Assembly: GCA_031284365.1 (NCBI GenBank)
Contig: JAISZX010000061.1
Coordinates: 1-62,585 of the forward strand
DNA from: Holosporaceae bacterium
GTDB lineage: Bacteria; Pseudomonadota; Alphaproteobacteria; UBA3830
Length of the DNA: 62,585 bases
Reading direction: 5' to 3'
This document shows, piece by piece, positions 18,578 to 45,291 of this stretch (positions are counted from its first letter, which is position 1; every line of letters begins with the position of its first letter). Both the position numbers and the translations under genes were made by a program. The notes under the pieces are model-generated. The model made no database searches. It was given only the letters and a program-made list of their open reading frames with translations, and was not told the origin of the DNA.

Positions 18578-19453
18578 TTGGAAAACAAATTTATTTCGGT
18601 CGAATCGGTGAAAAATATAGGTAGCAATTTAAAAACATCATTGGCAGATTCTCCAACGAATATGGTTCGCTGTTTTAAAATAAAACCAAAAGATGGTGAT
18701 ACTCTGGCTTTCACCGAGTACCATGCGGAGTTAAAGATAGGGGACATTGTTTACAAACCTCAGTGTAATTTCGAGGAAGGTGACGAACTTAGAGCCTTTT
18801 CAGACATAACCAGCAATAGTTACGGTGTCATAGCGGCATTTGACAACGTTGGCATTAGGAAAAATGAGATTTTTCTGGGTAAATTTGATAGTGCTAGAGT
18901 GGACATATTTATGGTTGACTGTGAGCATTTGGAATACGGTAGTGTCAGCATAGTTAGTGGTTTCGTGGATTCTGTGGAAATTTCCGGGGAAAGAGTTTAT
19001 TTCAGTGTAGCTGGAATTATGAGTGTTCTCGAGAAAACGATGGGCAGCGTCTATTCTCCTCTGTGCAGAGCCAAGTTTTGTGATAGAAAGTGTGGTTTGA
19101 CTATCCAAAGCTATAGCCATCACGGTGAAATAGCCAGTGTGACCGGAGATAGCGAATTTCACAGCGAAGTTAGTGCCATAAAAGACAAAGACAGGGACTA
19201 TTTTAGATATGGATTTGTTACTTTCACAGAAGGTAAAAATGTTAGCATTTCCATTGAGGTCAAACAGTCGTATCTTGGTAATATAGTTCTAAATGTACCA
19301 CCTCCAAGTGCCATGGGGGTGGGAGATCAGTTTACACTGGTGACCGGCTGCGATAAGAAATTTAGTAGCTGTATAGAAAAATTTGGAAATGCTGTAAATT
19401 TTAGGGGCGAACCCAATTTACCAAGAACTACTAAGGTGTACAAATTCTACTAG
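18578..19453 (+). CDS. GTA/phage tail protein, g13-like (DUF2163 + BR0599 C-terminal domain)
   Basis: The C-terminal VTGCDKKFSSCIEKFGNAVNFRGEPNLP matches the conserved GCDKxxxTCxxKFxNxxNFxGFP motif of the BR0599/DUF2163 family. Confidence 0.8.
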   Translation: MENKFISVESVKNIGSNLKTSLADSPTNMVRCFKIKPKDGDTLAFTEYHAELKIGDIVYKPQCNFEEGDELRAFSDITSNSYGVIAAFDNVGIRKNEIFLGKFDSARVDIFMVDCEHLEYGSVSIVSGFVDSVEISGERVYFSVAGIMSVLEKTMGSVYSPLCRAKFCDRKCGLTIQSYSHHGEIASVTGDSEFHSEVSAIKDKDRDYFRYGFVTFTEGKNVSISIEVKQSYLGNIVLNVPPPSAMGVGDQFTLVTGCDKKFSSCIEKFGNAVNFRGEPNLPRTTKVYKFY

Positions 19454-19909
19454 ATGTCGGAAAAGATTGGTTCCAGTGAAGTACTCGTGGTAGCTAGAAA
19501 ATGGATTGGCACAAGATTTCATTTCGCCGCCAGGGTTAGAAAAAATTCTGGCAATGCTGGTGGGATTGACTGCATAGGTCTAGTTATAAAAGTTGGTGAG
19601 GATATAGGAGCCTCTTTCAACGGTAGAAATATAGCCAGCTACGATTATCTGACGTACTCAAAATATCCAAATCGCGGAGAGATGAGAGAATTTCTGGATA
19701 GCTATTTTCTAAAAATGTCTGCAACCAGCACAGGAATTGGTGATCTGATTTATTTTAATTTTCCCAATGGTCTTGAACATATAGCTATAGCTAGTGATTT
19801 GGGTATCATTCACTGCTGTCTGGAGGCTAGATCGGTTGTGGAACATCAACTCAATTCCTACTGGAAAGAGAAAATAATAGGTTTCTATAGATATAATTTT
19901 GAATTCTAA
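19454..19909 (+). CDS. GTA/phage NlpC/P60 cell-wall peptidase, g14-like
   Basis: ARKWIGTRFHFAARV...GGIDCIGLV carries the catalytic Cys and GLEHIAIA carries the His. The start codon abuts the g13-like stop (tagATG). Confidence 0.8.
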   Translation: MSEKIGSSEVLVVARKWIGTRFHFAARVRKNSGNAGGIDCIGLVIKVGEDIGASFNGRNIASYDYLTYSKYPNRGEMREFLDSYFLKMSATSTGIGDLIYFNFPNGLEHIAIASDLGIIHCCLEARSVVEHQLNSYWKEKIIGFYRYNFEF

Positions 19910-22691: not shown

Positions 22692-25600
22692 ATGACCGCT
22701 ACAGAATCAGGAAAAATGAATTGTAAACTAGCAAGCATGCTTGTCCTTTTCCTATTATTCGGAATATCAATAAGTTTCACAGCCTTTGGCACCGTAGAAG
22801 TTAGTATAGACAATTTTAATAGTCTAAAGAGAATTCTTGAAGAGCAAAAAACTCCTCAAGTGAGGCAGGCCGCTAGAAAAACAAAGGTGAATATAAAAAT
22901 AACTAAAAACATAGAACTCGAACAGGAAGGAATAGTAGCTACCTATACGTATTTATATGCTAATAAGACTATTAGCTATAGTAACGTAGTTATGTCTGGT
23001 AGTTTAGAGAAGAATACATCTGATAGTTTAAAGAATGGAAGAATTCGGATTCATGGAGAAAAACAAATGGGGATAGGACACCATTCTTTAACATTTGGTG
23101 ATTCCGACGTTGATCGAACAAATATTCTTCTGAAAGATTTGGAGTTTGATCGAACAAATATTCTTCTGAAAGATTTGGAGTTTGATAGTTGCAACAACAT
23201 ATACGAAGAAAGTAAAGATAAAGAAACAAGTTATAGGAAAGGTGGTGGAGCTATTGTTATTGGAGGACAAACAGATATTACACTGGAAAATGTAATTTTT
23301 AATAATAATAGATCAAACTATGCTGGTGGTGCTATTGCTTCTCTGGGACCAGTGATGCCTGTCGAGGGACGTGAATTTAAAAATAACTTAATTTTCAGAG
23401 GAAAAGACGATGAAAGAATTATTTTCAGTAAAAATTACGTTGGGCATGAAAGTGAAGACGATGGTCCAATAGCATTTGGGAGCGAAGGTGGTGCGGTCTA
23501 TCTGCGGTACTCAAATCTAAATTTTGAAAATGAAGTATATTTCATAGAAAATCAATCCTTTGGCTCAGGTGGAGCCGTAGCTTCCTCTGGAAATAAATAC
23601 CAGAAAAATATTATAAATTTTAAAAAAGGAGTTCTTTTAAGAAAAAATTCTAGTATTTTGGAATATAAAGGTTATATAGGTGGAGGTGCTATTTATTTTA
23701 GTGACTCAGATGCAAATTTTTATGAAAATGCAACTTTTGAAGGAAACTCTGCCAGAGGAAAAGGCGGCGCTATCTATTCCCTTGGAGCAGAAAAGAAAGA
23801 AAGCGATGAAAGAAATATTTTAAATTTCTCTGGAGAAACCAGATTCATTGATAATAAAACCAATGAAAGTTACGGTGGAGCAATTTGTGCTATAGGTTCA
23901 CGTTTTATCTTCAACGGTAAAACAAGTTTTAGCGAAAATGTTTCCCATGACAAAGGGGGTGCCATCTATATAACAACCTGGTTTCAAATTAACAATGGCA
24001 AATTTGAGAGTTCTATCTTTAAAGAACAGGCAATTTTTGAAAGAAATCAAGCTTACCAAGGTGGTAGTGCGATCTACATTGAAAATAGTACGGAGATAGT
24101 ATTCGATGCTGGCCTTAATTTGATCGATAATATCACCAAAGCACAAGAAAGTAGTGGAGCCATACATATGAAGGGGTTTAGTGACGAAAGTCTAGCCAAA
24201 ATTACCATAGTACAGAAAAATTCTAGTGAAACAATATTCAAAGGAAACGAATCAAGCAACGGAAGTGAACAAAACGCTTTCTATCTGGAACAATATTCAC
24301 GGCTAAATTTTGTAGTGAATGACAGCTACATTGATCTCTACGATAAAATAGGTGGGGACAGATCGAAAAATAACAATGTTGTAACTATAGACAAAGGCAG
24401 CGGCTGGTTCCGCATCAGAGAGGAAGGTTCAATAAATAACGTCGATCTTGTCAATAGAGGAAATCTAGATTTGGCGAGTTCAGTATCCACAGAATTTAAT
24501 CTAGTTAGTTTTACAAACTCTGGGAAAATTAAATTTGAAATATTTGACAATAGAGTGTCCGATGTAATTAAAGCAGATACGATAAGTCTAAATCAGGGAA
24601 CTACCATAGAAATATTTACCAATAGTAAAGACATTATACACGAAGGAAATGTCTACAACATTTTGATTTCTAAAAATGTCATTGTCGTTGGTGGTGAAAT
24701 AACAATTGAGCCAAAATTATTGGGCAATTTTAAAGTTGAAGGAAAACTCAGTGATGATAATAAAGTCTATAGCGTTACTGTTATAGATGATGAAGAAAGA
24801 GAGAGAAAAATAAAGGAAGAGGAAAGGAGAAAAGAAGAGGAAGAAATAAGGAGAAAGGAAGAGGAAAGGAGAAAAGAAGAGGAAGAAATAAGGAGAAAGG
24901 AAGAGGAAAAGAGAAAAGAAGAGGAAGAAATAAGGAGAAAGGAAGAGGAAAGGAGAAAAGAAGAGGAAGAAAGAAAAAGGAGAGAAGAGGAAAAGAGAAA
25001 GGAAGAGGAAGAAATAGTAAGAGTAGAGGAAGAAAGAAGAAAGGAAGAGAAAGAAATAGTGAGGAGAATAGAAGAAGATGAAAATGGGAGAAACAAGGAA
25101 AAAATAAATATAAAAGAAGAAGACGAGAAAAATGAAGAAGAAGAAGAGACAGTAAAAGAAAAAGATATGACAATAACAAAAAAAGAAGAGAAAGAGGAAG
25201 AGGAAAAAATAACAGAAGAGGGTATAGTGGAAGAAAAAAAAGATACGGTAGAAGAAATGGAAGAAATTATAAAAACAGAAGATGAAGAAAAAAAGGAAAA
25301 ACATGAAGAAATAGCGATACCATTTAAAGATAAATCTCCGGATGAAACAGTATCTTTTGCAACCAATTTGCCTGGCAATCAACAAAATTATAATATTTTC
25401 ACTCAATTTGTAGCAAATATCATCAGCAATAATCTTCTATCTACCTGCCGAGCAAAGATCAGTAAGGATATTTCCCTAGATACTGTGGTTTTGGAACCAA
25501 ACTATGGCAATAGCAAAATATCCAATAAATTAACTGAAAGTACTCCAGGTATTCTAATAACCTATGGCCACAGCTTCGAGAATTTAATTGCTAGCAGAGA

Positions 25601-26291
25601 TATTCTTCTGGGACTACAATTTAATCTAGGTAACCATTTCTTCAGAGAGTACTATGGCAACAAAGCTAGAGCCAATGAAAAAACCGTAGCCCTACAGCTG
25701 TCAAGTGAGATTGGTAACAAATTTAATTTAATCTTAAATCTATCTTATGGAAAAAATAGCTATAATTTGGCTATAAACACAGAAAAATCAGCTATGATGG
25801 CAGAAACTAGTTTTTCTACCAGTGTATTTGATGTGGCTGCAATTCTAGAAAAAGAGTTTAGAATTAAAAATAATCTAATTTTCATTCCTTCCGGGGTACT
25901 ACAAGGTTCTCTGCTGAGTCACAATAAATTTGTTGGAAAAAATGAAAGAAATTTAGATTTAGCAATTTATGGCAACAATTATCATCTATTTTTTAGTAGC
26001 CTTAATCTGAATCTAACGTTAGATTCATATAAGCTTAGACCATTTATTGAGTTAGGAGCTAAATATCTAATATCAGCATCCAAACCAGAGGTTATAGCTA
26101 ATTTTATAGATTATCCTGACTATAAATTCAGGGTTGTTGGAATGACTTTCGATAAATTGCTAGGTTCTGCGGCTTTAGGCTTTAGTTATAGGGTGACTAA
26201 CAATTTATCCATAAATCTTAAAGGTGATTACCAATTTACCAAAAACTACAGATCAATTGTCGCTAGCTTTTTTGTAACCTATAGTTTATAA
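22692..26291 (+). CDS. autotransporter-type surface protein with Pmp (GGA[IV]/FxxN) passenger repeats, charged repeat stalk and C-terminal beta-barrel
   Basis: Signal-like N-terminus. At least 8 GGA(I/V) motifs alternate with FxxN (GGGAIVIGG..FNNN; GGAIAS; EGGAVYL..FIEN; GGGAIYF..FEGN; KGGAIYS..FIDN; YGGAICA..FSEN; KGGAIYI..FERN). The last about 300 aa have an alternating-hydrophobic beta-strand pattern. Confidence 0.75.
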   Translation: MTATESGKMNCKLASMLVLFLLFGISISFTAFGTVEVSIDNFNSLKRILEEQKTPQVRQAARKTKVNIKITKNIELEQEGIVATYTYLYANKTISYSNVVMSGSLEKNTSDSLKNGRIRIHGEKQMGIGHHSLTFGDSDVDRTNILLKDLEFDRTNILLKDLEFDSCNNIYEESKDKETSYRKGGGAIVIGGQTDITLENVIFNNNRSNYAGGAIASLGPVMPVEGREFKNNLIFRGKDDERIIFSKNYVGHESEDDGPIAFGSEGGAVYLRYSNLNFENEVYFIENQSFGSGGAVASSGNKYQKNIINFKKGVLLRKNSSILEYKGYIGGGAIYFSDSDANFYENATFEGNSARGKGGAIYSLGAEKKESDERNILNFSGETRFIDNKTNESYGGAICAIGSRFIFNGKTSFSENVSHDKGGAIYITTWFQINNGKFESSIFKEQAIFERNQAYQGGSAIYIENSTEIVFDAGLNLIDNITKAQESSGAIHMKGFSDESLAKITIVQKNSSETIFKGNESSNGSEQNAFYLEQYSRLNFVVNDSYIDLYDKIGGDRSKNNNVVTIDKGSGWFRIREEGSINNVDLVNRGNLDLASSVSTEFNLVSFTNSGKIKFEIFDNRVSDVIKADTISLNQGTTIEIFTNSKDIIHEGNVYNILISKNVIVVGGEITIEPKLLGNFKVEGKLSDDNKVYSVTVIDDEERERKIKEEERRKEEEEIRRKEEERRKEEEEIRRKEEEKRKEEEEIRRKEEERRKEEEERKRREEEKRKEEEEIVRVEEERRKEEKEIVRRIEEDENGRNKEKINIKEEDEKNEEEEETVKEKDMTITKKEEKEEEEKITEEGIVEEKKDTVEEMEEIIKTEDEEKKEKHEEIAIPFKDKSPDETVSFATNLPGNQQNYNIFTQFVANIISNNLLSTCRAKISKDISLDTVVLEPNYGNSKISNKLTESTPGILITYGHSFENLIASRDILLGLQFNLGNHFFREYYGNKARANEKTVALQLSSEIGNKFNLILNLSYGKNSYNLAINTEKSAMMAETSFSTSVFDVAAILEKEFRIKNNLIFIPSGVLQGSLLSHNKFVGKNERNLDLAIYGNNYHLFFSSLNLNLTLDSYKLRPFIELGAKYLISASKPEVIANFIDYPDYKFRVVGMTFDKLLGSAALGFSYRVTNNLSINLKGDYQFTKNYRSIVASFFVTYSL
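23112..23183 (+). repeat. perfect 2 x 36-bp tandem duplication (DRTNILLKDLEF x2)
   Basis: gatcgaacaaatattcttctgaaagatttggagttt occurs twice back to back, in frame. Confidence 0.95.
24816..25070 (+). repeat. 42-nt (14-aa) coding tandem repeat, 3 near-perfect plus about 3 degenerate copies
   Basis: Units start at 24816, 24858, 24900 and 24942 (gaagaggaaaggagaaaagaagaggaagaaataaggagaaag = EERRKEEEEIRRKE) and decay towards 25070. Confidence 0.85.
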
Positions 26292-30128: not shown

Positions 30129-32819
30129 TTATTCATGCAACCCAAGTATCTGCCATCCTGGATTCTCAACATAATTTTTTATATTAGACAGAAATTCCGA
30201 AGCTTTTCTGGTATCAGAAATTCTGTGATCATACGATAAAGATATATAAAGCATTGGCCTGATTTCCATTCCGCCATCGGCAACGACTGGTCGATTGTGC
30301 ATTTTATGAACGCTTAAAGTTGCGACCTGTGGTGGTGTAAGTAGATCTGTTCCTATTAGTGAGCCGTAAATTCCAGCGTTAACAACTGTAAAAGTTCCTC
30401 CGGAGGCTTCCTCTATTGATAAAGTTCCTTCTATAGCTCGTCTTGACAAATGAATCATTGCCACTTCGATTTCAGCAATTGTCATCGCATCCGCGTGCCT
30501 TATTACTGGTGCTGCTATACCATCATTTCCGCAGGTAATAATGGATATATCAAAATTATTTTTATATATGATTTCATCATTATGAATATGCGCATTAAAG
30601 ATGCGGTATTGCTTCAACGCAGCAATGCTGGCCGAGATAAAAAATGGGGTAAATCCAAGTCTAGTATTGTGCTTTTTCGAAAAAGCATTGCCAAAAGTTT
30701 TCTCCAAAGCTAGAATGGCACCCATATTAACTTCGTTCGATACAGTTGAAATAACTGACGCGTCGTAGGAATCGCGCATTTTTTCTGAGATACGACGTCG
30801 CAAAAAATCTATCGGCTCATTGTAATCTCCCGGAGTTTCAAAAAATTTAGGTTTATTCCAATTATCTGCGTATACTTCCGGAGTGTTGCTTTCTTGCTCT
30901 ACACTTAACAATTTTTTTACAATTCTATTTTGTTCCTCAATTTCGCAATTCTTCTCTTTTAAAACTTTATTGTGCAAATCAGATTCTTCTTTAGTAAAGT
31001 TTCCAAATTGTTCAGTCGTTTCATTCTTTGTGACATCTGTTATCTCACTATTCACAGTGCTAGTGTTTATCTCCGCGACATGTTTTTTGCATGTCTCATT
31101 TTTTAAAACATTAACAGTTCTGTGAACACTTTCGTACATATTTTTGTTAATTTCAACTACGGCAAAATGTACCATTTCCACAGTCGTTTCTTCGATTTTT
31201 TCGATAACATCAGCCTTAACATTGCCAATAGTTTTCTCGATGGAAGACTTAATTTCTTTGTAAGCATTTTTCCTAGCGTCGTCTACGGCTTCACGTACAT
31301 CACACTCCATTTTTTCGTTTATCTCAGCTACAACGCGTTTTAGCGTCAAATTAGTCATTCCGCGAACATTATCACAGGCAATTTTTCTAACTTCACTAAC
31401 CATTTCGTATATATCATGTCCAATTTTTTGATTGATTTCTGTAATAATCGAATTTAACACTGAGTGCATCGATTCGCTAATTTCAGAACAAGCATTTCTC
31501 CTCGTATTATCAACAACTTCGTGCAGATCTTTACCCATTTCTTGATTAATTTGTACAATAATAGAGCGCAGCATTGAACTTGCCGATTCACGGATTTCAT
31601 TGCATGCTTCAATTTTTCCGTCATTCATTACATCGCGAATGTTATTCTCAATTTTTTTGTTAATCTCATTAATGGCAGATTCCAGAATTGAATGAGTCGT
31701 TCCACATATTTCATTATTTGCAATTTTGAGAATTTCTTCCTTTAGTAACTCTGCTTCGTTGGAAGCTAACCGTGTTGTTGATTCAATTAACTCTTCAGCG
31801 TGAACATGTGAACGCATTCTGGCATCTTTAACGATTTCTTTTACTATCGTTTTTGATTCCTTTGCTGCATGTTTACGTGCAGAATGAATGATATCTTTTT
31901 TTATCGCTTTCGCTTCCATTTTTGATTCATTTATAGCTTCCTCGATAATTTCTTTTGATAGCAATTCTGCAGCTTGTTTCGCTTCCTCTTTTGCGTTGGA
32001 GATGGCATCTTTTATTGTTGTTTCAGCTTTGTACTTAGCTTCTTTTTCCGCATTACTGATGATTTCATAGCGAATATTTTCAGCTTCCTTCAGGGCGCGC
32101 TCTCGAGCCTCATCTATTAATTTTAATTTTGTATTTTCTGCCTCTTGGATTGAGCCTTGAATAATTTTTTTGTGCATTTCACTGGCGTCTCTAGTTGCTT
32201 TTTCCTCATATTCTCTTAATATTTTGCACTTAAGCTCTTCAGCTTGCATGAAAGCCAGTCTTCGAGCTTCCTCAATGATCTTTTCTTTCAGTTTATGAGA
32301 CTCTTCTCTGGCTTGATTTTCGGCATTTTTAAGGATATTCATGCACTTTTCTTCTGTATGTACATAAACTTCACCTATTATCTCTTCTTCAATTTTCACA
32401 CTTTTTTCAACTGAGGTTTCAACAAGTGGAACCGAAAGACCGTGCCCTTTGCTGGTAAAATCATTGAAAATTTGATTTTCTTCATGAATTTCATTCTGTA
32501 TCTCAGATCCTACAACATCAGATACAATTTTTGCTTCCATTATTTCTACACTTCGTATAACGTCAGATATATCCGCGCTCAAATCCGTTTCTATGACAGC
32601 AATTTTTGTTCCCTGCGGAATTACAGCACCTTCTTCCACCAAGATCTTCACTAATATACAGTCGTAACTCGACGTAATGCCGCATGCCACAGACATGGTT
32701 TCAGCATCCGCTACTATTTCATTTTTAGAAATTCTTTCGCCTACACTTTTATACCAAGAAGACAGGACAACTTCCTCTGAAGAGTTATCAAAATTCGGAA
32801 CTATTATATCTATACGCAT
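30129..32819 (-). CDS. E2 (SucB-type) 2-oxoacid dehydrogenase acyltransferase homologue with a degenerate lipoyl domain and a long helical-repeat insert
   Basis: The C-terminal 230 aa form the acyltransferase catalytic domain (GGTFTVVNAGIYGS ... LSYDHRISD). The N-terminal about 75 aa are lipoyl-domain-like, but ETDKV reads ETMSV. ATG at 32819 (MRIDIIVPNF, GGTGA 7 nt upstream) is preferred over the longest-ORF start at 32921. Confidence 0.8.
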   Translation of the reverse strand: MRIDIIVPNFDNSSEEVVLSSWYKSVGERISKNEIVADAETMSVACGITSSYDCILVKILVEEGAVIPQGTKIAVIETDLSADISDVIRSVEIMEAKIVSDVVGSEIQNEIHEENQIFNDFTSKGHGLSVPLVETSVEKSVKIEEEIIGEVYVHTEEKCMNILKNAENQAREESHKLKEKIIEEARRLAFMQAEELKCKILREYEEKATRDASEMHKKIIQGSIQEAENTKLKLIDEARERALKEAENIRYEIISNAEKEAKYKAETTIKDAISNAKEEAKQAAELLSKEIIEEAINESKMEAKAIKKDIIHSARKHAAKESKTIVKEIVKDARMRSHVHAEELIESTTRLASNEAELLKEEILKIANNEICGTTHSILESAINEINKKIENNIRDVMNDGKIEACNEIRESASSMLRSIIVQINQEMGKDLHEVVDNTRRNACSEISESMHSVLNSIITEINQKIGHDIYEMVSEVRKIACDNVRGMTNLTLKRVVAEINEKMECDVREAVDDARKNAYKEIKSSIEKTIGNVKADVIEKIEETTVEMVHFAVVEINKNMYESVHRTVNVLKNETCKKHVAEINTSTVNSEITDVTKNETTEQFGNFTKEESDLHNKVLKEKNCEIEEQNRIVKKLLSVEQESNTPEVYADNWNKPKFFETPGDYNEPIDFLRRRISEKMRDSYDASVISTVSNEVNMGAILALEKTFGNAFSKKHNTRLGFTPFFISASIAALKQYRIFNAHIHNDEIIYKNNFDISIITCGNDGIAAPVIRHADAMTIAEIEVAMIHLSRRAIEGTLSIEEASGGTFTVVNAGIYGSLIGTDLLTPPQVATLSVHKMHNRPVVADGGMEIRPMLYISLSYDHRISDTRKASEFLSNIKNYVENPGWQILGLHE

Positions 32820-32914
32820 TATCAAATCACCATAGTGCCCACGATCATTAAATAACAAAAAAATTGCTTTTGTGTTAATTTGCTCAAAAAAAATCGCATT
32901 TTTACGTGGTTTTT

Positions 32915-33616
32915 TTACCATGTCGATCCAAGCTTTATGAAAATTTGGCGTTCGGTATCCTTTTGTATTTCAATGAAATTTTGTTTTATTGTTTTTATGA
33001 TATAGTCATCAATATGATCTTCAACACTAAACCAAGAATCATCTATGTAAGCTTTAGAATCGCTAATTGTACAAAACAACTGGTGTTGTTTTGTTTTTTT
33101 AAACAAATTAATACGGTCATATTTTCGATTTGTGACATTGATGGAAGAAATATTTGGGAGCTCTTTTATTATTGTAGACGTAAATTGAATAACAGCTGCT
33201 ACGTCTCCTTTATCAGTGATAAGTAATTTTATTGACTTAAAATATATCAAGCCAGGCAATTCAAAAAACAATTTATCTATAAAATAGTAAATTTTTTGTT
33301 CTTGATTTGCCAGGATTTTTATTTCAGTGCCAGTGGAATCACATTTAATCAATATCTTTTTCAAACACAGTTCTTTTGTGATTTCCTTTATGCATTTTTT
33401 CATATCGTCACTTGAAGAAAAGAGTTTTTCTTTTGATTTTAAATGCTTAGGTGTATTAATTTTTATCTCTCTTACAAGTTTGTTTATTTGATTTCTCGAT
33501 TCGATGAGACACTCTTTTTGATTTTCAAGATCAATTAAATTCGATATTTTTGAGATACACAGAATACTCAATATTGTTATCAAAAAAAATGGAATACATA
33601 TTCTTATTTTATGCAT
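32915..33616 (-). CDS. hypothetical bitopic membrane protein (GspM/PilO-like by architecture only)
   Basis: N-terminal TM (ICIPFFLITILSILCI) plus about 200 aa predicted outside. It overlaps the upstream gene by 13 nt. No motif-level match. Confidence 0.45.
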   Translation of the reverse strand: MHKIRICIPFFLITILSILCISKISNLIDLENQKECLIESRNQINKLVREIKINTPKHLKSKEKLFSSSDDMKKCIKEITKELCLKKILIKCDSTGTEIKILANQEQKIYYFIDKLFFELPGLIYFKSIKLLITDKGDVAAVIQFTSTIIKELPNISSINVTNRKYDRINLFKKTKQHQLFCTISDSKAYIDDSWFSVEDHIDDYIIKTIKQNFIEIQKDTERQIFIKLGSTW

Positions 33617-34647
33617 ATGTTGGATCCAATTTTTTTATCTGAGTCGAGCTCTTCATATTCATCATTTGAATTTCTTTCTATTTCAATAGCATCACACGTT
33701 TTTAATTTTTCGAACTGTGATCTGTTTAGTGATGTTTTTATTTTGATTTTATTTTCATAGGATAATTGCTCAACATTAATAAGATGTTTGCGACATATCT
33801 CAGAAGCATTCCGAAATAGCTCCAAAGGATTTTGTAATTTTTTTATTTTATCAAAAAATTGCTTTGTATTGGAGAAATTTTCATTGTTAATTTCTAAAAC
33901 GATATCATCAGTTGTCACACGCACACTTTTTTTGAGAAATGAAATGTCATTTTTTTGATTTTCTATACTTTTATCGATATAAAATAGTGATAAAGAAATG
34001 GCAACTACAACTGCATATAAAAATTTCTCATTTAAAAATTTTTTAATATAATTTTTGTTAACATAGATAGGTTTTATTTGATTGTTTGATAACAGAAAAT
34101 CAGTAATAATTTTACTCATGTTATTTGAATTCTCGATGTAATATTTCTCAATAACAACTTTTGAATTGATTTCTAGATTTTGCAATGTAGAAAAAAATTT
34201 CACACTTTCTGTCATTCCGAATCTTTGCAAATACATTATGGTTCTGGAAATTTCGTTTTGCATGCTTGAATTTTCAGATAAAAATCTCGACAATATTATT
34301 CCTCTTCCTACTCCGGCTATAATTCTTGCTCCGCTTGCATGATAAGCGGCGTATAACCACCAATCTTTTTCATTAAGTTTACTAATATTATCACAAAATT
34401 CCGCAATAACGTTTTCCATTAAAAATATATCATCATTTGCGGTTAAATTTTGCGGAAGTAAAATTTTTTGGATGTAATGATTTGATTTTTCAAAGAAAGA
34501 TATTCTGTCTTTTTTTACCAAAAATGCTTTTTCACGTTCAGAAAAAGTCTTTCTTTTGCATTTTAGAATTTTGTACGCGTCAAATAAGGAACAGTTCATT
34601 AACTGCTCCAGAGATAACTCAACTTCATTTGTGTCCAATAAATACAT
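33604..34647 (-). CDS. hypothetical bitopic protein (GspL / PilM-N-like by architecture only)
   Basis: About 205-aa N-terminal soluble part, a single TM (FLYAVVVAISLSLFYI), then about 125 aa at the C-terminus. The ATG immediately follows the gspF/pilC-like stop (taaATG). Confidence 0.45.
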   Translation of the reverse strand: MYLLDTNEVELSLEQLMNCSLFDAYKILKCKRKTFSEREKAFLVKKDRISFFEKSNHYIQKILLPQNLTANDDIFLMENVIAEFCDNISKLNEKDWWLYAAYHASGARIIAGVGRGIILSRFLSENSSMQNEISRTIMYLQRFGMTESVKFFSTLQNLEINSKVVIEKYYIENSNNMSKIITDFLLSNNQIKPIYVNKNYIKKFLNEKFLYAVVVAISLSLFYIDKSIENQKNDISFLKKSVRVTTDDIVLEINNENFSNTKQFFDKIKKLQNPLELFRNASEICRKHLINVEQLSYENKIKIKTSLNRSQFEKLKTCDAIEIERNSNDEYEELDSDKKIGSNICIK

Positions 34648-35823
34648 TTATGTACCTGCCATTTCAACATAATTGTAAATCGGATAAAACAAACTGCATA
34701 AAATGAAAACAAATATCAATCCAGTAAAAAACGTCAGCCCAATACTCATAAATTGCCCTAGTGACTTGATTTCAAACAATATTTCTTTGTATTGATTTTT
34801 ACTAATGTGATGAAAGCTACTAGGAAGATCGTTTCCATCTTCTCCAACGTATATGGCGAGAAGAATATCTCGCGGAATCAAATTTCCGAGGGCGAAGGAT
34901 TCCGCAATTTTGTATCCATCAATTATATTATCGCGAATATTTTGCAATTCGCTTTTTAATGAATCTAATTTTATTGTTTCGATAGCTAAGTTCAACGCTG
35001 GAATGAAGTCCAATTTTGCGTTAAGAGCTATACTTAAAATTTTGCAGAACTGCCACATGGAAATTTTTATGATTAACTGACTGATTTTTGGAATTTTTAA
35101 CATTACTTGCGCTAAAATTTTTTTGCCTTTTTTGGTTGGTAAAAAAAACGCAATTAACATCAACGGAAAAATCATGAATTCAGAAATTTTTGGAAGTACA
35201 TTTATCGCGAATTGAGTGAGTTGTGGAATTTCTCCACCATCGCAATTTTGAACCAATGACGTAACCTGAGGCCCCAAAAATACTATACTCAAAACGAGAA
35301 CAAGAAGCGCGACTACCATAATAAAAATTGGATATATAATTGCTCGCTTTACATTATTTTTCCAATCCATTTGTAATTTTAAAAAACTTAAAATGTTTGA
35401 AATTACTTCTATTGTGTTTCCGGTATTTTCCGCTGATTTCAACATTCCAACAATAACTTCATCAAAAATAAAATGACTTTTTTGAAACGCCTCACCAATG
35501 CTTTCTCCTTCTTTCAAAGAATTAGAAATATCCAAAAGAGTTGCATTTAAAGTTTTGTTTCCATGAAAATCGGAAAAAGAATCGATGGCGTCGTTAATAT
35601 TCACTCCACATTTCAACTGAAAATTTATATGCATAAAAAATGTTAGTAAATCTTCAAGTGCAACTTTTTGCGAAGCAAAATATATTCTTTTTATTTCAAT
35701 TGGATGACAATGTTTCTTGTGAAGAATGTCATAAACGCACTTAAAATTATCGGCCAAAATTGCACCATCTTTTTTTTTGCCATTCTTAGTCAGCACTTTA
35801 TATTTATATATCGGCATTGCCAA
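34648..35823 (-). CDS. type II secretion / type IV pilus platform protein (GspF/PilC family)
   Basis: Two GspF-type repeats, e.g. GESIGEAFQKSHFIFDEVIVGMLKSAENTGNTIEV and the second-half analogue GYKIAESFALGNLIPRDILLAIYVGEDGNDL, with 3 TM segments. Confidence 0.85.
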   Translation of the reverse strand: MAMPIYKYKVLTKNGKKKDGAILADNFKCVYDILHKKHCHPIEIKRIYFASQKVALEDLLTFFMHINFQLKCGVNINDAIDSFSDFHGNKTLNATLLDISNSLKEGESIGEAFQKSHFIFDEVIVGMLKSAENTGNTIEVISNILSFLKLQMDWKNNVKRAIIYPIFIMVVALLVLVLSIVFLGPQVTSLVQNCDGGEIPQLTQFAINVLPKISEFMIFPLMLIAFFLPTKKGKKILAQVMLKIPKISQLIIKISMWQFCKILSIALNAKLDFIPALNLAIETIKLDSLKSELQNIRDNIIDGYKIAESFALGNLIPRDILLAIYVGEDGNDLPSSFHHISKNQYKEILFEIKSLGQFMSIGLTFFTGLIFVFILCSLFYPIYNYVEMAGT

Positions 35824-37276
35824 AAACTCTCGCTATTTCGTTCAAATCTGTGAGATGAAAATCGACAGCTTCCCTTGAAGATTTTTGAAAAGTTTTATCA
35901 AGTTTGCATACGCTGATATCTTCGCACCCGAGAATGTTTTTTTTTAACTCTTCAGAAAAATAAATGTACTCAGTTATCGGAAATCTACCGTGATATTCGC
36001 AGTTTGTTAGACGTCGAGCAAGACGTTGTGAAAAAATTCCGATGAGACTTGGTAAAAAATCAGATAATTTTAGTCCTAAATCCAACAATCTTCGAATTCC
36101 TTCGATTGGTGTAGCTGCGTGCAGAGTGGCGAGCACGAGTCGTCCAGTAAGTGATGCGCGAATAGCAGTTGCCGCTGTCGCTTCGTCTCTAATTTCCCCG
36201 ACTAGCATAACATCAGGGTCCTGTCGCAGAATTGATCGAACACCATCTGCAAAAGATAAAATTCCTTCTTCTCGCAAGTCAAGTTGTTTTATGCCATCAA
36301 TTTGATATTCAACAGGATCTTCCAGAGTCATTATATTGATCGATGCAGAATTTATTTCCTTTAATAGGGAATATAACGTAGTTGTTTTACCGGATCCGGT
36401 TGGTCCAACTATCAAAAATATTCCACTGGGAAAAGATATAACCTTCTTAAGCCACAAAAAATCATCACGGGAGAAACCTAGCTCAATCAATGACTTAATG
36501 CCATTTGATAAATCAAAGATTCGCACAACGAAATTCTCTCCAAAAATACTCGGATGTGTAGAAATTCTCAGGTCGATTATTCTTCCTGCCAAGTGAATGC
36601 GCGTATGTCCGCTCTGAGGTCGACGATTCTCCGTTATGTTAAGATTGGAAATTAATTTCAGCTTCGATTTCATGCGCATCCAAGAATCTAAATCTATGTT
36701 TTTTAAGACATATAGAATGCCGTCCACTCTTATGCGAACGCGAACAAAATTTTCTGATGGTTCAAAATGAATATCGCTCGCCTTGGATTCCATGGCTTCA
36801 AAAATTATTTTATTTAACAGAAGCAATGGATCTTTATCAATTAATTCTGCGTCGCATTTCATTATTTCTAGAAATCTCAAAATTTCCGTTTCTTTTGCAA
36901 TAAAAAATTCTATTTTTTTCTCTCTGAGAGATGAACTAATGGCGTCAATTGCACGTAAATCTCCTGGATCGGCGATTGCGATTTTTGCGCATTTGTCGTT
37001 GATCAAAAATGGGATAACCAAATGTTTTGCTGCTATATTGTACGGAATAGATGTTAGCGTTTTTTTATCTACATATAAAAATTCAAGACTAACGATTTTA
37101 ATTGAGTACAATTCTGATAGAATTTTCAGCAGATCATTTTCTTTTAAAAAACCGAGAGTTACTGCCAATTGTCCAAAAAGTAAGTCTGACTTCTTCTGTG
37201 ATTTTGCAACGATAAGGATTTGTTCTTTAGTCATTAATCCTCTGTTAAATAGTGTTTCTCCAATGCAGTTAACCAA
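35804..37276 (-). CDS. type II secretion / type IV pilus assembly ATPase (GspE/PilB family)
   Basis: N-terminal T2SSE_N-like domain. Walker A VGPTGSGKTTT; Asp box LEDPVEYQ; Walker B/His box DPDVMLVGEIRD ... TGRLVLATLHA. The tetracysteine motif is degenerate (only 3 scattered Cys). Confidence 0.9.
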   Translation of the reverse strand: MVNCIGETLFNRGLMTKEQILIVAKSQKKSDLLFGQLAVTLGFLKENDLLKILSELYSIKIVSLEFLYVDKKTLTSIPYNIAAKHLVIPFLINDKCAKIAIADPGDLRAIDAISSSLREKKIEFFIAKETEILRFLEIMKCDAELIDKDPLLLLNKIIFEAMESKASDIHFEPSENFVRVRIRVDGILYVLKNIDLDSWMRMKSKLKLISNLNITENRRPQSGHTRIHLAGRIIDLRISTHPSIFGENFVVRIFDLSNGIKSLIELGFSRDDFLWLKKVISFPSGIFLIVGPTGSGKTTTLYSLLKEINSASINIMTLEDPVEYQIDGIKQLDLREEGILSFADGVRSILRQDPDVMLVGEIRDEATAATAIRASLTGRLVLATLHAATPIEGIRRLLDLGLKLSDFLPSLIGIFSQRLARRLTNCEYHGRFPITEYIYFSEELKKNILGCEDISVCKLDKTFQKSSREAVDFHLTDLNEIARVFGNADI

Positions 37277-37347
37277 AATATCTCTCCGGACATAATTTTC
37301 TGTAATATTTTACTAAACGACTGGTAAGAAAAGGTTTAAAAATTTGC

Positions 37348-43161: not shown

Positions 43162-45291
43162 TTATCTCCAGCGTAGATTATAAACCTCCTGCTGTCCAAA
43201 GCTTTTGGCTAGAGAAATTACACCTACATATTCTGTGGAGTATCTTTCGTAATATTTGAGTCCTTTTTGCTCAAATTCATTGCGTTCATCGTTTGTTTCT
43301 CCGTATAAAAGTGACACAAATTGTTGCGTTGCGTATACCTGTCCAACTGCTGTGACGGGCTCGAGTCTTGCCGCTCTGTTAATGTGTCCGCCATAGAAAT
43401 TTGTTTTCTTGATGAATGGATCCTGCGCAATGAACACTGGCCCAGAATGCAACGATATCCTTGCCCGAATTGGAAATGGAAACTCCGGATATTTTAGCCC
43501 GAGATTTTCAATAATGTCGCAATATCTGAGTCCAAAATCAGCTATTTTCATGGAGCTGTCTGCAACAGCAAACACAGCATCTCCCCAAGTATTTAGCGAT
43601 TCCAGTGAAACACCAATTTTATCTATGGCCGCGTTAAGTTTTTCTAAAAAGTCCAGGAAAGACGGAATATGCTCGTCTTGTAGCTTACTATAGCCTGATA
43701 AATCAGAAAACATCATAGACTTTATGACGCGTTCAGGCGTTTTTGATATAAATGGATCAAAAGTTAATGAAAATTTTTGAGGTTGAACAAGAGAAAGGTC
43801 GATTTTATCGACATTTCCGCCGTTATCGCCCAATTCGTCCAGATCTATCAGGTGAAGCGTACTAATATTTGTCCATCTATCGATAAAATCTGCTGGACCT
43901 CCGGGAATCGCATCAGTTCTGGAATGCCAAACAGCCATTAAATGAGGCTCTGTGGTCAGAAATTTTCCTCGCATAACGGCGCTGCCGTGCATGACGTGAT
44001 TCGCGAACCTGTATAGCATGTCATGCCCAAGGTAGCGGTCTTCACAGGCAAAGCTGACAGAATGAGCACTTTCGAGAACTCGCTGAAATCTTTTTTCCCA
44101 GCGAGGCCCAGCGTGCCTCACATTTGTTTCAATGAAATCGGAAATAGCAAAGGGCAAAATAATGTTGACCTCTCCACCCAGGCTCTGAAGCGCCTCCATG
44201 AATATGATATCAGCGCCACAGGACGCCGAACTATATCCTATCTTTGCATTAATGGATTGTAATTTTTCCGTAATAATACGTTTGACATCGGCCTCAATTT
44301 CCTGTGGAAATAGCGATACCTGGAAGCTAGGGTGATCTATCGCATGTCCCGTAAACACAACAATCGTTGGAGGACTCAGAATTTCAAATGTTTTATTGGG
44401 GACCTTAAGACCAGCGTCTCTCAGAAAATACAACTGTTGTCGAGCAGTTACTATCGAAATATAACTTTCGCTGGCACTTTGCTTCATTGCTTCGCCATAA
44501 AGTTTGCAAGCATCGTCCTCGCGTCCAAGCAACAACTGAGCTTCAGCCAAATCTATCAGCTCATTAAATGATGCTTCGAGCCCGAAAGGAGGTAATAATT
44601 TCAGAACTTCTGCTGCCATCTGCTTAGCCTGAGCGTCTTCTCCGGTCACCCAGGAAAGCCACGCTGCGTGCATGCCTGTCCGCGTCTTCTTCTCTTTTTT
44701 GAAGGAAGCAAGGTACAACTCCCGCGATATTTCCAGATCTCGACAACTGCGAGAATATTTCCACGACTCGTTAAATATGTGACCGAGATTGGCGATAACA
44801 TCTGCGCGTCCTTCCGTGAGAAATTTGCTAGTCAAGAGATCTTCGATAGTAATAACCATCGTATTAGTTGCTTCGTCTTTCTGCGGAGTAATTCCAAGAA
44901 TTTGGTATATTAAGTTTTGAGACTCTTTGACTGCTCCTGTTTTCAGTAAAACAAGAGCGTATGCCTGGGCCAATCCAACATTGTTCGGATGTTTTTGAAA
45001 TGCCTTTTTAGCTATCACATGAGCTTTAAACATGTGCCCGGTAGCAATCAAGTTCGTTATCTGATCTTCAACTTCATTGCATGAAGCTTTCTCAAGTTTA
45101 TTTTCTTCAGAATCGTCATCACTTAGATCAGTATCGTCAACTGGAGTCTCTACGGCTGTGGTTTTTTTCTGTGAAGAGGTTGCTGGCGCATCCGAGCTAT
45201 CCACTGGATTACACTCACTGGACGTCTGATTTTCTTCCTTGTTTTCCCCAGTGTTTTCAGTATCTTCTGTCACGTTTCCTTCTTTTTTCAC
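43162..45291 (-). CDS. multidomain signalling protein: acidic N-terminus, TPR-like region, Rossmann-like middle domain, class III nucleotide cyclase
   Basis: The C-terminal about 190 aa read MFSDLSGYSKL ... WGDAVFAV ... ISLHSGPVF ... YGGHINRAARLE ... GQVYATQQF, which are the class III cyclase metal-Asp, GD and NxxxR motifs. The middle domain reads IVVFTGHAID ... SSASCGADIIFMEALQSLGGEVNIILPF. Confidence 0.7.
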   Translation of the reverse strand: MKKEGNVTEDTENTGENKEENQTSSECNPVDSSDAPATSSQKKTTAVETPVDDTDLSDDDSEENKLEKASCNEVEDQITNLIATGHMFKAHVIAKKAFQKHPNNVGLAQAYALVLLKTGAVKESQNLIYQILGITPQKDEATNTMVITIEDLLTSKFLTEGRADVIANLGHIFNESWKYSRSCRDLEISRELYLASFKKEKKTRTGMHAAWLSWVTGEDAQAKQMAAEVLKLLPPFGLEASFNELIDLAEAQLLLGREDDACKLYGEAMKQSASESYISIVTARQQLYFLRDAGLKVPNKTFEILSPPTIVVFTGHAIDHPSFQVSLFPQEIEADVKRIITEKLQSINAKIGYSSASCGADIIFMEALQSLGGEVNIILPFAISDFIETNVRHAGPRWEKRFQRVLESAHSVSFACEDRYLGHDMLYRFANHVMHGSAVMRGKFLTTEPHLMAVWHSRTDAIPGGPADFIDRWTNISTLHLIDLDELGDNGGNVDKIDLSLVQPQKFSLTFDPFISKTPERVIKSMMFSDLSGYSKLQDEHIPSFLDFLEKLNAAIDKIGVSLESLNTWGDAVFAVADSSMKIADFGLRYCDIIENLGLKYPEFPFPIRARISLHSGPVFIAQDPFIKKTNFYGGHINRAARLEPVTAVGQVYATQQFVSLLYGETNDERNEFEQKGLKYYERYSTEYVGVISLAKSFGQQEVYNLRWR

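What the first reader, a model, noticed from the sequence alone, without database searches (positions are those of the whole stretch)
32915..37276. Stripped-down GspE-GspF-(L-like)-(M-like) cassette with no pilin, secretin or prepilin peptidase in the window
Four minus-strand genes are tightly packed:
- ATPase and platform protein overlap by 20 nt.
- The platform stop is followed directly by the next ATG.
- The next junction overlaps by 13 nt.

Only the ATPase and the platform protein are recognisable. The two downstream genes match GspL/PilMN and GspM/PilO only in topology: soluble domain, TM, periplasmic domain for the first, and TM plus periplasmic domain for the second.

No ORF of at least 60 aa in the ORF track shows a prepilin leader (G-F-T-L-I-E type), a secretin or a PilD-like protease. 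The ATPase has also lost the usual tetracysteine Zn site.

The E-F-L-M order without the pseudopilin block, ending in the aberrant E2 homologue, is not a standard T2SS, T4P or Com layout.
Basis: partly seen in the sequence, partly recalled or inferred. Interest (0 to 1): 0.7.

Follow-up and report, generated by a model that had tools for sequence, protein, structure and literature searches.

The report
Minimal type-IV-pilus-like motor cassette
Four tightly packed genes in a Holosporaceae (protist-endosymbiont type) genome encode the inner-membrane engine of a type IV pilus / type II secretion-like machine; every relative found keeps it as an isolated block with no pilin, peptidase or outer-membrane pore gene nearby, and the adjacent E2 gene is a coincidence.

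Summary
Window 32915-37276 (minus strand) carries four translationally coupled genes:
- a PilB/GspE-type ATPase;
- a PilC/GspF platform protein;
- two proteins, 347 aa (X) and 233 aa (Y), with no Pfam or NCBIfam match.

Structure prediction fills in the two unknowns. X has a PilM-like actin-fold domain, a TM helix and an alpha/beta periplasmic domain, so it is a PilM-PilN fusion, i.e. GspL-like. Y has a TM helix, a coiled coil, a PulM/PilO-like ferredoxin domain and a confident six-strand beta domain. That last domain looks like PilP/GspC-HR, but this is unproven.

About 20 independent homologous loci carry the same E-F-X-Y block. All that carry a name are Holosporaceae MAGs, mostly from termite guts. 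The flanks differ each time. None has the E2 gene next to it, so the five-gene idea fails.

The ATPase clade uniformly lacks the tetracysteine Zn subdomain. No pilin, secretin or prepilin peptidase lies in the window or in about 400 kb of related loci. Published inventories of complete Holosporaceae genomes list a secretin but no pilin or peptidase. Whether these exist elsewhere in this genome could not be tested.

Verdict: a lineage-specific, compacted variant of a known machine, already catalogued as "incomplete T4P". It would be of real interest only if it is truly pilin-less.

The parts
35804..37276 (-). Assembly ATPase of the PilB/GspE class. It has an N-terminal MshEN (N1) domain and intact Walker A (GPTGSGKTT), Asp box, Walker B (DPDVMLVGEIRD) and His box (LATLHA). 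The tetracysteine Zn subdomain is deleted.
   Evidence: Pfam T2SSE 2.3e-87 and MshEN 5.4e-13. NCBIfam GspE 337.8 bits and PilB 338.0 bits, both far below the equivalog cut-offs. Best solved relatives are the M. xanthus and Geobacter PilB (276/272 bits), against 232 bits for Vibrio GspE. The roughly 37-aa Zn-loop deletion is shared by all 14 orthologues. Amino-acid identity to orthologues is 60-87%.
34648..35823 (-). Polytopic platform protein of the PilC/GspF class. The real start is probably the ATG at 35817, which gives a 14-nt overlap with the ATPase gene.
   Evidence: Pfam T2SSF 1e-32 in two stretches. NCBIfam HofC/GspF about 139 bits and PilC about 109 bits, below the equivalog cut-offs. 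Junction read. Relatives show 14-nt overlaps. Identity to orthologues is 43-79%.
33604..34647 (-). X: a bitopic GspL-like protein, i.e. a PilM-PilN fusion. Residues 1-190 form a cytoplasmic actin-fold domain. A helix at about 198-235 holds the hydrophobic TM stretch FLYAVVVAISLSLFYI. Residues 242-346 form a periplasmic alpha/beta domain.
   Evidence: AF2 model with mean pLDDT 77. Foldseek top PDB hits are PilM 5eou, 3jc8_M and 2ych (E 1e-5 to 3e-5, prob 1.0), then FtsA. No Pfam or NCBIfam hit in it, and no Pfam hit in any of 51 relatives. No PDB sequence hit. The family has 72 representative clusters among 1.84 billion proteins. Its ATG directly follows the platform stop.
32915..33616 (-). Y: a bitopic GspM/PilO-like protein with an extra C-terminal beta domain. 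Residues 2-53 form the TM helix and coiled coil. Residues 69-148 form a ferredoxin-like domain. Residues 156-174 are a disordered linker. Residues 179-228 form a six-strand beta domain, a candidate PilP/GspC-HR-like secretin adaptor.
   Evidence: AF2 mean pLDDT 75.5; the C-terminal domain reaches about 92. Foldseek: PulM C-terminal domain 8a9x/7ze0/8ab1 (TM-score normalised to the target 0.70-0.77, rmsd 2.2-2.7 A, prob 1.0, but E 0.05-0.15), PilO 3jc8_O and 2rjz, XcpY 6ghu. C-terminal motif L-x-G-I...A-Y-I-(N/D)...G-D-x-I...I..I....I.I...G....I.L-G..W is conserved in 13 orthologues. hhalign against two GspC HR domains aligns the expected segment, but only at P=0.037. It overlaps X by 13 nt.
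37277..37347 (.). A 71-nt divergent intergenic region between the cassette and trpS. It is the presumed promoter region of the cassette and holds the GGAGAG ribosome-binding site.
   Evidence: Sequence read. The promoter scan gives no more matches than shuffled sequence does (38 found against 36.9 expected), so the promoter is inferred only.

Best explanation
The four genes form one operon. It encodes the complete cytoplasmic-membrane subcomplex of a type IV filament machine of the T4aP/T2SS branch, compacted into four proteins:
- a hexameric PilB/GspE-type ATPase that has lost its Zn subdomain;
- a PilC/GspF platform;
- X, a GspL-like PilM-PilN fusion. Its actin-fold domain would clamp the ATPase under the membrane, and its periplasmic domain would pair with Y;
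- Y, a GspM/PilO-like protein that also carries a small beta domain. That domain plausibly does the job of PilP or the GspC HR domain, reaching a secretin in the outer membrane.

The block is an old, vertically inherited module specific to Holosporaceae and is under purifying selection. Its position next to the E2 gene in this genome is accidental.

**Shown:** the identities of the ATPase and platform; the folds and topology of X and Y; conservation of the block; absence of partner genes nearby.

**Inferred:** the X-ATPase and X-Y contacts; Y docking to a secretin encoded elsewhere; the output of the machine.

My best guess (about 0.5) is that it still drives a short periplasmic pseudopilus, built from pilin-like subunits encoded elsewhere. 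It would then work as a T2SS-like exporter through a secretin, not as a surface pilus. The confidence of 0.75 applies to the identity of the block as this inner-membrane subcomplex, not to the output step.
For: **Family matches.**
- Profile matches for the ATPase and the platform.
- The catalytic motifs are intact (sequence).

**Predicted folds.**
- X model pLDDT 77, with PilM as best structural match (E 1e-5, prob 1.0).
- Y model with a PulM/PilO-like domain (TM-score normalised to the target up to 0.77) and a six-strand C-terminal domain at pLDDT about 92. The GspC HR domain is itself a sandwich of six consecutive beta strands whose nearest structural relative is PilP (PMC3169554).

**Precedent for both fusions.**
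- PulL is a PilM-PilN fusion (PMC10191384).
- PilO-PilP fusions exist (PMC3169554).

**Gene arrangement.**
- Translational coupling at all three junctions.
- The same E-F-X-Y order and spacing in about 20 independent loci with unrelated housekeeping flanks.

**Conservation.**
- Identity falls from ATPase 60-87% to platform 43-79%, X 27-60% and Y 31-53%, with intact reading frames throughout.

**Literature.**
- Published inventories of complete Holosporaceae genomes list gspF, pilB, gspD/pilQ and in one case pilM (bioRxiv 10.1101/719211 Table S3). So a secretin partner is plausible in the family.
Against: - X and Y have no sequence-level link to GspL/M or PilM/N/O/P. There are no Pfam or NCBIfam hits and no PDB sequence hits to them. 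hhalign against the E. coli GspL/M/C/B and HofM/N/O/P single sequences gives Prob of about 10 or less.
- Foldseek E-values for Y are weak (0.02-0.15), and the ferredoxin-like fold is common.
- The PilP/HR reading of the Y C-terminus rests on strand count, a motif resemblance and one marginal P=0.037.
- No pilin, prepilin peptidase or secretin was seen anywhere in the about 400 kb examined. The published inventories list no pilin or peptidase either. The pseudopilus step is therefore unsupported.
- Orthology between this cassette and the genes listed for Cytomitobacter and Nesciobacter was not checked directly.
Confidence: 0.75

Rival explanations
1. This is an ordinary split T4aP system. The same genome encodes canonical pilins, a PilD-type prepilin peptidase and a PilQ secretin at other loci. 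The cassette is then just the pilBC-pilMNOP part of a normal pilus.
For: - T4aP genes are commonly scattered over several loci (established knowledge).
- Only 62.6 kb of this genome is visible.
- One relative (L017, isolate Im510_bin49) carries tadA-tadB-tadC about 5 kb upstream of the cassette. Some genomes of the group therefore do make type IV filaments and must have a prepilin peptidase.
- Pilins are short and diverge fast, so HMM catalogues miss them easily.
Against: - Inventories of three complete, closed Holosporaceae genomes list only gspF, gspD, pilB, pilQ and in one case pilM. They list no pilin and no peptidase.
- Most Holosporales are described as having "incomplete Type IV pili" (PMC9992710).
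- In about 20 loci, none has a pilin, peptidase or secretin within up to 10 kb on either side.
- No PilT-type retraction ATPase was seen either.
Confidence: 0.3
2. This is a machine that truly lacks a filament. The lineage has lost pilins and prepilin peptidase but keeps ATPase, platform, X, Y and a secretin. The motor would then do something other than polymerise pilins, for example gate or energise export through the secretin.
For: - The same literature inventories.
- The cassette is strongly conserved in very reduced genomes.
- The whole clade has remodelled the ATPase by deleting the Zn subdomain.
- Most orthologues lack the first Arg of the MshEN c-di-GMP motif as I recall that motif; the column is variable in the alignment.
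Against: - Pilin, peptidase, ATPase and platform are the four components found in every known type IV filament system (PMC10191384).
- No activity other than pilin polymerisation is known for PilB/PilC-type pairs (my own knowledge).
- Absence in catalogues is weak evidence for short, divergent proteins.
- Nothing was tested in this genome beyond one contig.
Confidence: 0.3
3. The cassette forms a five-gene functional unit with the aberrant E2 (SucB-like) gene.
For: - The two lie on the same strand, about 95 nt apart.
- No terminator-like site lies between Y and E2. One terminator-like hairpin follows E2.
Against: - tblastn of the E2 protein finds nothing in any of the 20 related loci held at that point.
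- Gene tables of nine contexts show different downstream genes each time: yggT, tsaD, ruvA, an mlaE/ABC pair, an SDF transporter and others.
Confidence: 0.03
4. The cassette is a decaying, non-functional remnant of a lost T4P or T2SS.
For: - The host genomes are reduced.
- X and Y are sequence orphans.
- The ATPase has lost a subdomain.
Against: - All four frames are intact in all full-length loci.
- The ATPase is 60-87% identical across lineages in which X has drifted to 27%.
- The catalytic motifs are intact.
- Overlapping start and stop codons are preserved.
- The Zn deletion is uniform across the clade, so it is old and tolerated.
Confidence: 0.05

Closest known systems
T2SS inner-membrane platform GspE-GspF-GspL-GspM, e.g. 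Klebsiella Pul or Vibrio Eps
   Same: - An ATPase with an N1 domain and a polytopic platform protein.
- A bitopic protein with an actin-like cytoplasmic domain fused through one TM helix to a periplasmic alpha/beta domain (GspL is a PilM-PilN fusion).
- A bitopic GspM-like partner. Y's middle domain superposes on the PulM C-terminal domain (TM-score normalised to the target up to 0.77).
- The gene order E, F, then L, M.
   Different: - There is no pseudopilin block (G-K), GspC, GspD or GspO between or near the genes.
- X and Y do not match the GspL or GspM profiles.
- Y carries an extra C-terminal beta domain.
- The ATPase lacks the tetracysteine Zn site and scores below the GspE equivalog cut-off.
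T4aP PilB-PilC with the PilM/N/O/P alignment subcomplex (M. xanthus, P. aeruginosa)
   Same: - The best solved relatives of the ATPase are PilB proteins.
- The best structural match of X is PilM.
- Y matches PilO (3jc8_O, 2rjz).
- PilP is the nearest structural relative of the GspC HR domain that the Y C-terminus resembles.
   Different: - Four proteins (M, N, O, P) are compacted into two.
- Y has no lipobox, so it is not a lipoprotein as PilP is.
- No PilA, PilD, PilQ or PilT is nearby.
- There is no sequence-level homology for X or Y.
PilO-PilP fusion proteins, e.g. Pseudomonas putida Q88CU9, cited in PMC3169554
   Same: A single polypeptide with a TM anchor, a PilO-type domain and a PilP-type domain. 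This is the architecture proposed here for Y.
   Different: - No comparison with Q88CU9 was made here.
- The identity of Y's C-terminal domain is unproven (P=0.037).
Clostridial T4P clusters with the order pilB-pilC-pilM(N)-pilO (own knowledge, not tested here)
   Same: The same order: ATPase, platform, PilM/N-type gene, PilO-type gene.
   Different: - Those clusters also hold pilins and pilD.
- They belong to monoderm bacteria without a secretin.
"Incomplete type IV pili" or "T2SS/T4P hybrid" gene sets catalogued in Holosporaceae/Holosporales (bioRxiv 10.1101/719211; PMC9992710)
   Same: - The same bacterial family.
- The same recognisable genes (pilB, gspF, sometimes pilM), with no pilin or peptidase listed.
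   Different: - Those papers list HMM hits only.
- They do not describe the conserved four-gene block, the two orphan families, their folds or the Zn-less ATPase.
- A 2025 review of the order does not mention the system at all.

Membership tests
GspE/PilB secretion ATPase superfamily (Pfam T2SSE) | A match to the T2SSE ATPase domain above the gathering score, with Walker A, Asp box, Walker B and His box | tested here: met
   293.5 bits against a cut-off of 24.9. GPTGSGKTT, EDPVEY, DPDVMLVGEIRD and LATLHA are all present in the translation.
GspE/PilB secretion ATPase superfamily | An N-terminal N1/MshEN domain | tested here: met
   MshEN 49.2 bits against a cut-off of 23.1. The c-di-GMP motif model scores 32 bits, below its cut-off of 38.
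GspE / PilB assembly ATPases | A tetracysteine (CxxC...CxxC) Zn-binding subdomain in the C-terminal domain | tested here: not met
   A roughly 37-residue deletion covers the whole motif relative to E. coli GspE, in the window and in 13 orthologues.
GspE (TIGR02533) or PilB (TIGR02538) equivalogs | A score above NCBIfam's equivalog cut-off | tested here: not met
   337.8 against 630.25 for GspE and 338.0 against 675.65 for PilB. The protein belongs to neither named subfamily.
GspF/PilC platform proteins | Two T2SSF domains in a polytopic membrane protein | tested here: met
   T2SSF 113 bits in two stretches. It falls below all equivalog cut-offs.
GspL / PilM-PilN | A sequence-profile match | tested here: not met
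   No Pfam or NCBIfam hit for X, and no Pfam hit for any of 51 relatives. hhalign against E. coli GspL, HofM and HofN gives Prob below 1.
GspL / PilM-PilN | A cytoplasmic actin-like (PilM-type) fold, one TM helix and a periplasmic alpha/beta domain | tested here: met
   AF2 model. Foldseek gives PilM 5eou, 3jc8_M and 2ych at E about 1e-5, prob 1.0. The periplasmic domain is judged from its secondary-structure pattern only.
GspL / PilM-PilN | Binding of the ATPase N1 domain | not testable with these tools
   This needs a complex prediction or an experiment.
GspM / PilO | An N-terminal TM helix, a coiled coil and a periplasmic ferredoxin-like domain | tested here: inconclusive
   The topology and fold are present. 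PulM C-terminal domain: TM-score normalised to the target 0.70-0.77, prob 1.0; PilO prob 0.92-0.98. Foldseek E is only 0.02-0.15 and the fold is common. There is no profile hit.
PilP / GspC HR domain | A six- to seven-strand beta sandwich that binds the secretin N0 domain | tested here: inconclusive
   Six strands in residues 179-228, pLDDT about 92. There is a motif resemblance. hhalign against two HR domains gives P=0.037 on the expected segment. Pairwise z-scores are 1.5 or lower. The domain could not be fold-searched on its own.
Type IV filament system, as a whole | The four universal core parts: pilin(s), prepilin peptidase, extension ATPase and platform (PMC10191384) | tested here: inconclusive
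   The ATPase and platform are present. No pilin or peptidase lies in the window or in about 400 kb of related loci. The rest of the genome is not available.
T2SS / diderm T4aP | An outer-membrane secretin | tested here: inconclusive
   None in the window or in the related loci. gspD/pilQ is listed for complete Holosporaceae genomes in the literature.

The most novel reading that the evidence does not exclude
Holosporaceae keep a type IV filament motor (ATPase, platform, PilMN-like and PilOP-like proteins, probably with a secretin) but have lost both pilins and the prepilin peptidase. If so, the engine works without a filament. That would be the first exception to the rule that all type IV filament machines share those four core parts.
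Probability: 0.3. Interest if true: 0.8.

Novelty: new variant of a known kind. Interest (0 to 1): 0.5.

Why it matters
- Obligate endosymbionts discard almost everything they do not need. A four-gene motor kept at 60-87% ATPase identity across a whole family is therefore very probably important for life inside the host.
- The Holosporales literature focuses on the type VI system and barely mentions this one.
- Defining the block and two new protein families (X with 72 representative clusters; Y with nine members found in the protein searches plus orthologues in the loci) gives a search handle for it.
- If closed genomes confirm that no pilin and no peptidase exist, the system would test whether a PilB/PilC motor can do work without polymerising pilins.
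- If pilins are found, it is simply a compact, divergent T2SS/T4P. It would still be useful as a naturally minimised model: PilMNOP reduced to two proteins and an ATPase without its Zn domain.

Tried and rejected
**Sequence searches that gave nothing**
- Profile searches of the X and Y families against PDB sequences gave no hit to any secretion or pilus protein.
- Pfam scans of all family members gave nothing relevant.
- hhalign of the family alignments against single E. coli GspL/M/C/B and HofM/N/O/P sequences gave nothing significant.
- Smith-Waterman with shuffling for the Y C-terminus against E. coli GspB, GspC and HofP gave z of 1.5 or lower. K-12 GspB turned out to lack the relevant domain.
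- A PDB search with the E. coli GspC HR segment, meant to collect more HR sequences, was swamped by designed beta-propeller proteins.

- The broad 51-sequence alignment was too diverse for the genome scan.
- The single genome-collection scan went on the X family. No secretin or peptidase scan of Holosporaceae genomes was therefore possible.

**Other dead ends**
- The E2 protein with its corrected start is not on record in the contig index.
- No tandem repeats and no internal BLAST repeats were found in the E2 insert.
- Literature searches for pilQ, prepilin peptidase or pilin in Holospora or Caedibacter found nothing relevant.

**Readings considered and rejected**
- A five-gene unit with E2.
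- A decaying remnant.
- A Tad system or a PilT-type ATPase. The ATPase has an MshEN N-domain, and its PilB/GspE scores are far above its PilT or TadA scores.

Full report
**Where the window comes from.**
- The 62.6-kb window has low GC (31-45%) and encodes alphaproteobacterial housekeeping genes.
- The two unknown genes of the finding have homologues only in MAGs labelled Holosporaceae, most from termite-gut metagenomes, and in unnamed metagenome contigs.
- The closest locus is L008, Holosporaceae isolate Gx481_bin64. Identities there are 87% for the ATPase, 79% for the platform, 60% for X and 53% for Y.
- The window is therefore a contig of an uncultured Holosporaceae bacterium. This family consists of obligate intracellular symbionts of protists.

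**The observation.**
- Four minus-strand ORFs sit at the coordinates given.
- I read every junction. The platform stop TAA is followed directly by the ATG of X. X and Y overlap by 13 nt.
- The ATPase and platform genes overlap by 20 nt if the TTG at 35823 is used. The ATG at 35817 gives 14 nt, the overlap seen in gene calls of three relatives, so 14 nt is more likely.
- A GGAGAG ribosome-binding site lies 5 nt before the ATPase TTG start.
- The E2 gene downstream probably starts at 32819, where its lipoyl domain begins. That is about 95 nt after the stop of Y.

**The two recognisable genes.**
- The 490-aa protein is a PilB/GspE-class ATPase: Pfam T2SSE 293 bits and N-terminal MshEN 49 bits.
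- NCBIfam scores it equally as GspE (337.8) and PilB (338.0), about half of either equivalog cut-off.
- Among solved structures the PilB proteins of M. xanthus and Geobacter score best (276/272 bits). Vibrio GspE scores 232 bits and PilT about 105 bits.
- Walker A, Asp box, Walker B and His box are all intact.
- Aligned with E. coli GspE, the window protein and 13 orthologues share one clean deletion of about 37 residues. It removes the whole CxxC...CxxC Zn subdomain.
- The 391-aa protein has two T2SSF domains. It scores slightly better as HofC/GspF than as PilC.

**The two unknown genes.**
- X (347 aa) and Y (233 aa) match nothing in Pfam or NCBIfam. They match no relevant PDB sequence. No Pfam family fits X's 51 relatives or Y's 10.
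- An exhaustive profile search finds the X family in only 72 representative clusters among 1.84 billion proteins.
- The AlphaFold2 model of X has mean pLDDT 77. It shows an N-terminal alpha/beta domain (1-190), one long helix (about 198-235) holding the hydrophobic stretch FLYAVVVAISLSLFYI, and a C-terminal alpha/beta domain.
- Foldseek against the PDB puts PilM first (5eou, 3jc8_M, 2ych; E 1e-5 to 3e-5, prob 1.0), then FtsA.
- The model of Y has mean pLDDT 75.5. It shows a TM helix running into a coiled coil (2-53), a ferredoxin-like alpha-beta-beta-alpha-beta-beta domain (69-148), a disordered linker, and a six-strand beta domain (179-228) at pLDDT about 92.
- Foldseek aligns the middle domain with the PulM C-terminal domain (TM-score normalised to the target 0.70-0.77, rmsd 2.2-2.7 A), PilO (3jc8_O, 2rjz) and XcpY. 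E-values are only 0.02-0.15 and the fold is common. I rate this moderate support.

**The C-terminal domain of Y.**
- It is the best conserved part of the protein, with a motif of the form L-x-G-I...A-Y-I-(N/D)...G-D-x-I...I..I....I.I...G....I.L-G..W.
- In length, strand number and motif it resembles the GspC HR domain. [quoted passage not shown]
- A profile comparison with the E. coli and Klebsiella HR domains aligns the expected segment, but only at P=0.037. Pairwise tests are not significant.
- I therefore treat "PilP/HR-like secretin adaptor" as a lead, not a result.
- PilO-PilP fusions are known (PMC3169554), so the proposed architecture has precedent.

**Conservation and context.**
- Look-ups by protein identity, plus one scan of the species-representative genome collection, gave 25 related loci. 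About 20 are independent.
- Every full-length locus has the same four genes in the same order with overlapping or abutting junctions. This includes the most distant ones: L002/L020 with X at 27-29% identity, L023, L024/25, L027 and L028.
- The flanks are unrelated housekeeping genes that differ from locus to locus.
- tblastn with the window's E2, TrpRS, PNPase, HU and SpoT proteins finds none of them in any of the 20 related loci held at that point.
- The E2 adjacency is therefore specific to this genome, and the five-gene reading is refuted.
- Identity falls steadily from the ATPase to Y. This is the pattern expected for a working machine with a conserved motor and fast-evolving structural adaptors.

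**The missing partners.**
- A strict prepilin-motif scan of the window and of the seven loci held at that point (L001-L007) found one spurious 29-aa match.
- A relaxed scan of the window and the loci held so far (through L025) recovered E. coli GspG, H, I and J as positive controls. In the window and the Holosporaceae loci it found only internal TM segments of two transporters.
- phmmer with E. coli GspA-O and HofM-Q against every open frame of 40 aa or more, in the window plus 25 loci (399 kb), hit only the ATPase and platform genes.
- So no pilin, prepilin peptidase or secretin lies in this window or within up to 10 kb of any homologous cassette.
- In the literature, three complete Holosporaceae genomes are listed with gspF, gspD, pilB, pilQ and in one case pilM, and nothing else of the system. 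The authors call it "a possible T2SS/T4P hybrid" (bioRxiv 10.1101/719211).
- Most Holosporales are said to have "incomplete Type IV pili" (PMC9992710). A 2025 review of the order does not mention the system.
- I did not verify that those listed genes are orthologous to this cassette.

**How it most likely works.**
- The four proteins are what is needed for the cytoplasmic-membrane subcomplex of a T4aP/T2SS-type machine: motor, platform, a GspL-like clamp and a GspM/PilO-like partner that may also reach a secretin.
- The identities of the ATPase and platform, the folds and topology of X and Y, and the block's conservation are shown.
- The contacts, the secretin link and the output are inferred from how PilMNOP and GspLMC work in studied systems.
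- My best guess (about 0.5) is a T2SS-like exporter with a short pseudopilus, made of divergent subunits encoded elsewhere.
- The alternative is that pilins and peptidase are truly gone (about 0.3). That would break the rule that pilin, peptidase, ATPase and platform occur in every type IV filament system (PMC10191384).
- A simple split T4aP with canonical parts elsewhere is also about 0.3. It overlaps with my best guess.
- A dead remnant is unlikely, given intact frames and 60-87% ATPase identity.

**Novelty and score.**
- The parts and both fusions have precedents, and the reduced gene set has been catalogued.
- New here are the definition of an invariant four-gene block, two orphan families with PilMN-like and PilO(P)-like folds, and a clade-wide Zn-less ATPase.
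- I class it as a new variant of a known kind, with interest 0.5. Interest would rise to about 0.8 if closed genomes show no pilin and no peptidase.

Noticed in passing
window 30129-32819 (-): The SucB-like E2 gene next to the cassette is odd in itself. Its lipoyl domain aligns with E. coli SucB, but the lipoyl-lysine motif ETDKV reads ETMSV. About 560 residues rich in E, K and I (E 16%, K 11%) are inserted between the lipoyl and catalytic domains. The DHR..D catalytic motif is kept. No sucA or lpd gene is in the window. It may be an E2 core that can no longer be lipoylated.
   Followed up: partly
L017 24-2698 (MAG Holosporaceae isolate Im510_bin49): The 3' part of a TadA/CpaF-type ATPase gene (TIGR03819, 222 bits) is followed by two ORFs of 333 and 323 aa. 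From the translations alone I read these as TadB/TadC-like; no profile search was run on them. They lie about 5 kb upstream of the E-F-X-Y cassette, separated from it by dapB, nth, kdtA and other genes. At least one relative thus also has a Tad-type filament system, which implies a prepilin peptidase in that genome.
   Followed up: partly
window 37130-37276 (-), N-terminus of the ATPase: The MshEN domain keeps the shape of the two tandem c-di-GMP-binding motifs. The leading Arg of the motif (RLGxx, recalled from memory) is replaced in most orthologues: CIGE/SIGE/NIGE in the first motif and LFGQ in the second. It is kept only in the most distant ones, L002 and L020. The NCBIfam c-di-GMP motif model scores 32 bits, below its cut-off of 38.
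   Followed up: partly
window 18578-19909 (+) and 2387-3190 (+): Phage or gene-transfer-agent-like genes sit among housekeeping genes. They are a baseplate-hub protein (Phage_phiJL001_Gp84_N plus Phage_BR0599), an NlpC/P60 peptidase and a DUF2793 protein. This fits the report of GTA clusters in reduced protist endosymbionts (PMC9254644, seen; the paper was not read).
   Followed up: partly
window 5943-12023 (+), 22692-26291 (+), 231-1613 (+): Three large proteins with long E/K-rich low-complexity tracts or eukaryote-like repeats:
- a 2026-aa multi-TM protein with no NCBIfam hit;
- a 1199-aa protein with Chlamydia PMP repeats, which by eye looks like an autotransporter;
- a MORN-repeat protein.

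The E/K-rich insert in the E2 gene looks like part of the same genome-wide habit.
   Followed up: partly
window 43162-45291 (-): A 709-aa protein with a TPR region and a C-terminal class III adenylate/guanylate cyclase domain. It is a signalling gene in an otherwise reduced genome.
   Followed up: no
window 32001-36000: The cassette region has the lowest GC of the window (0.306-0.311, against 0.33-0.45 elsewhere). The cassette is present in every related genome found, so this more likely reflects relaxed composition in fast-evolving membrane-protein genes than recent transfer.
   Followed up: no
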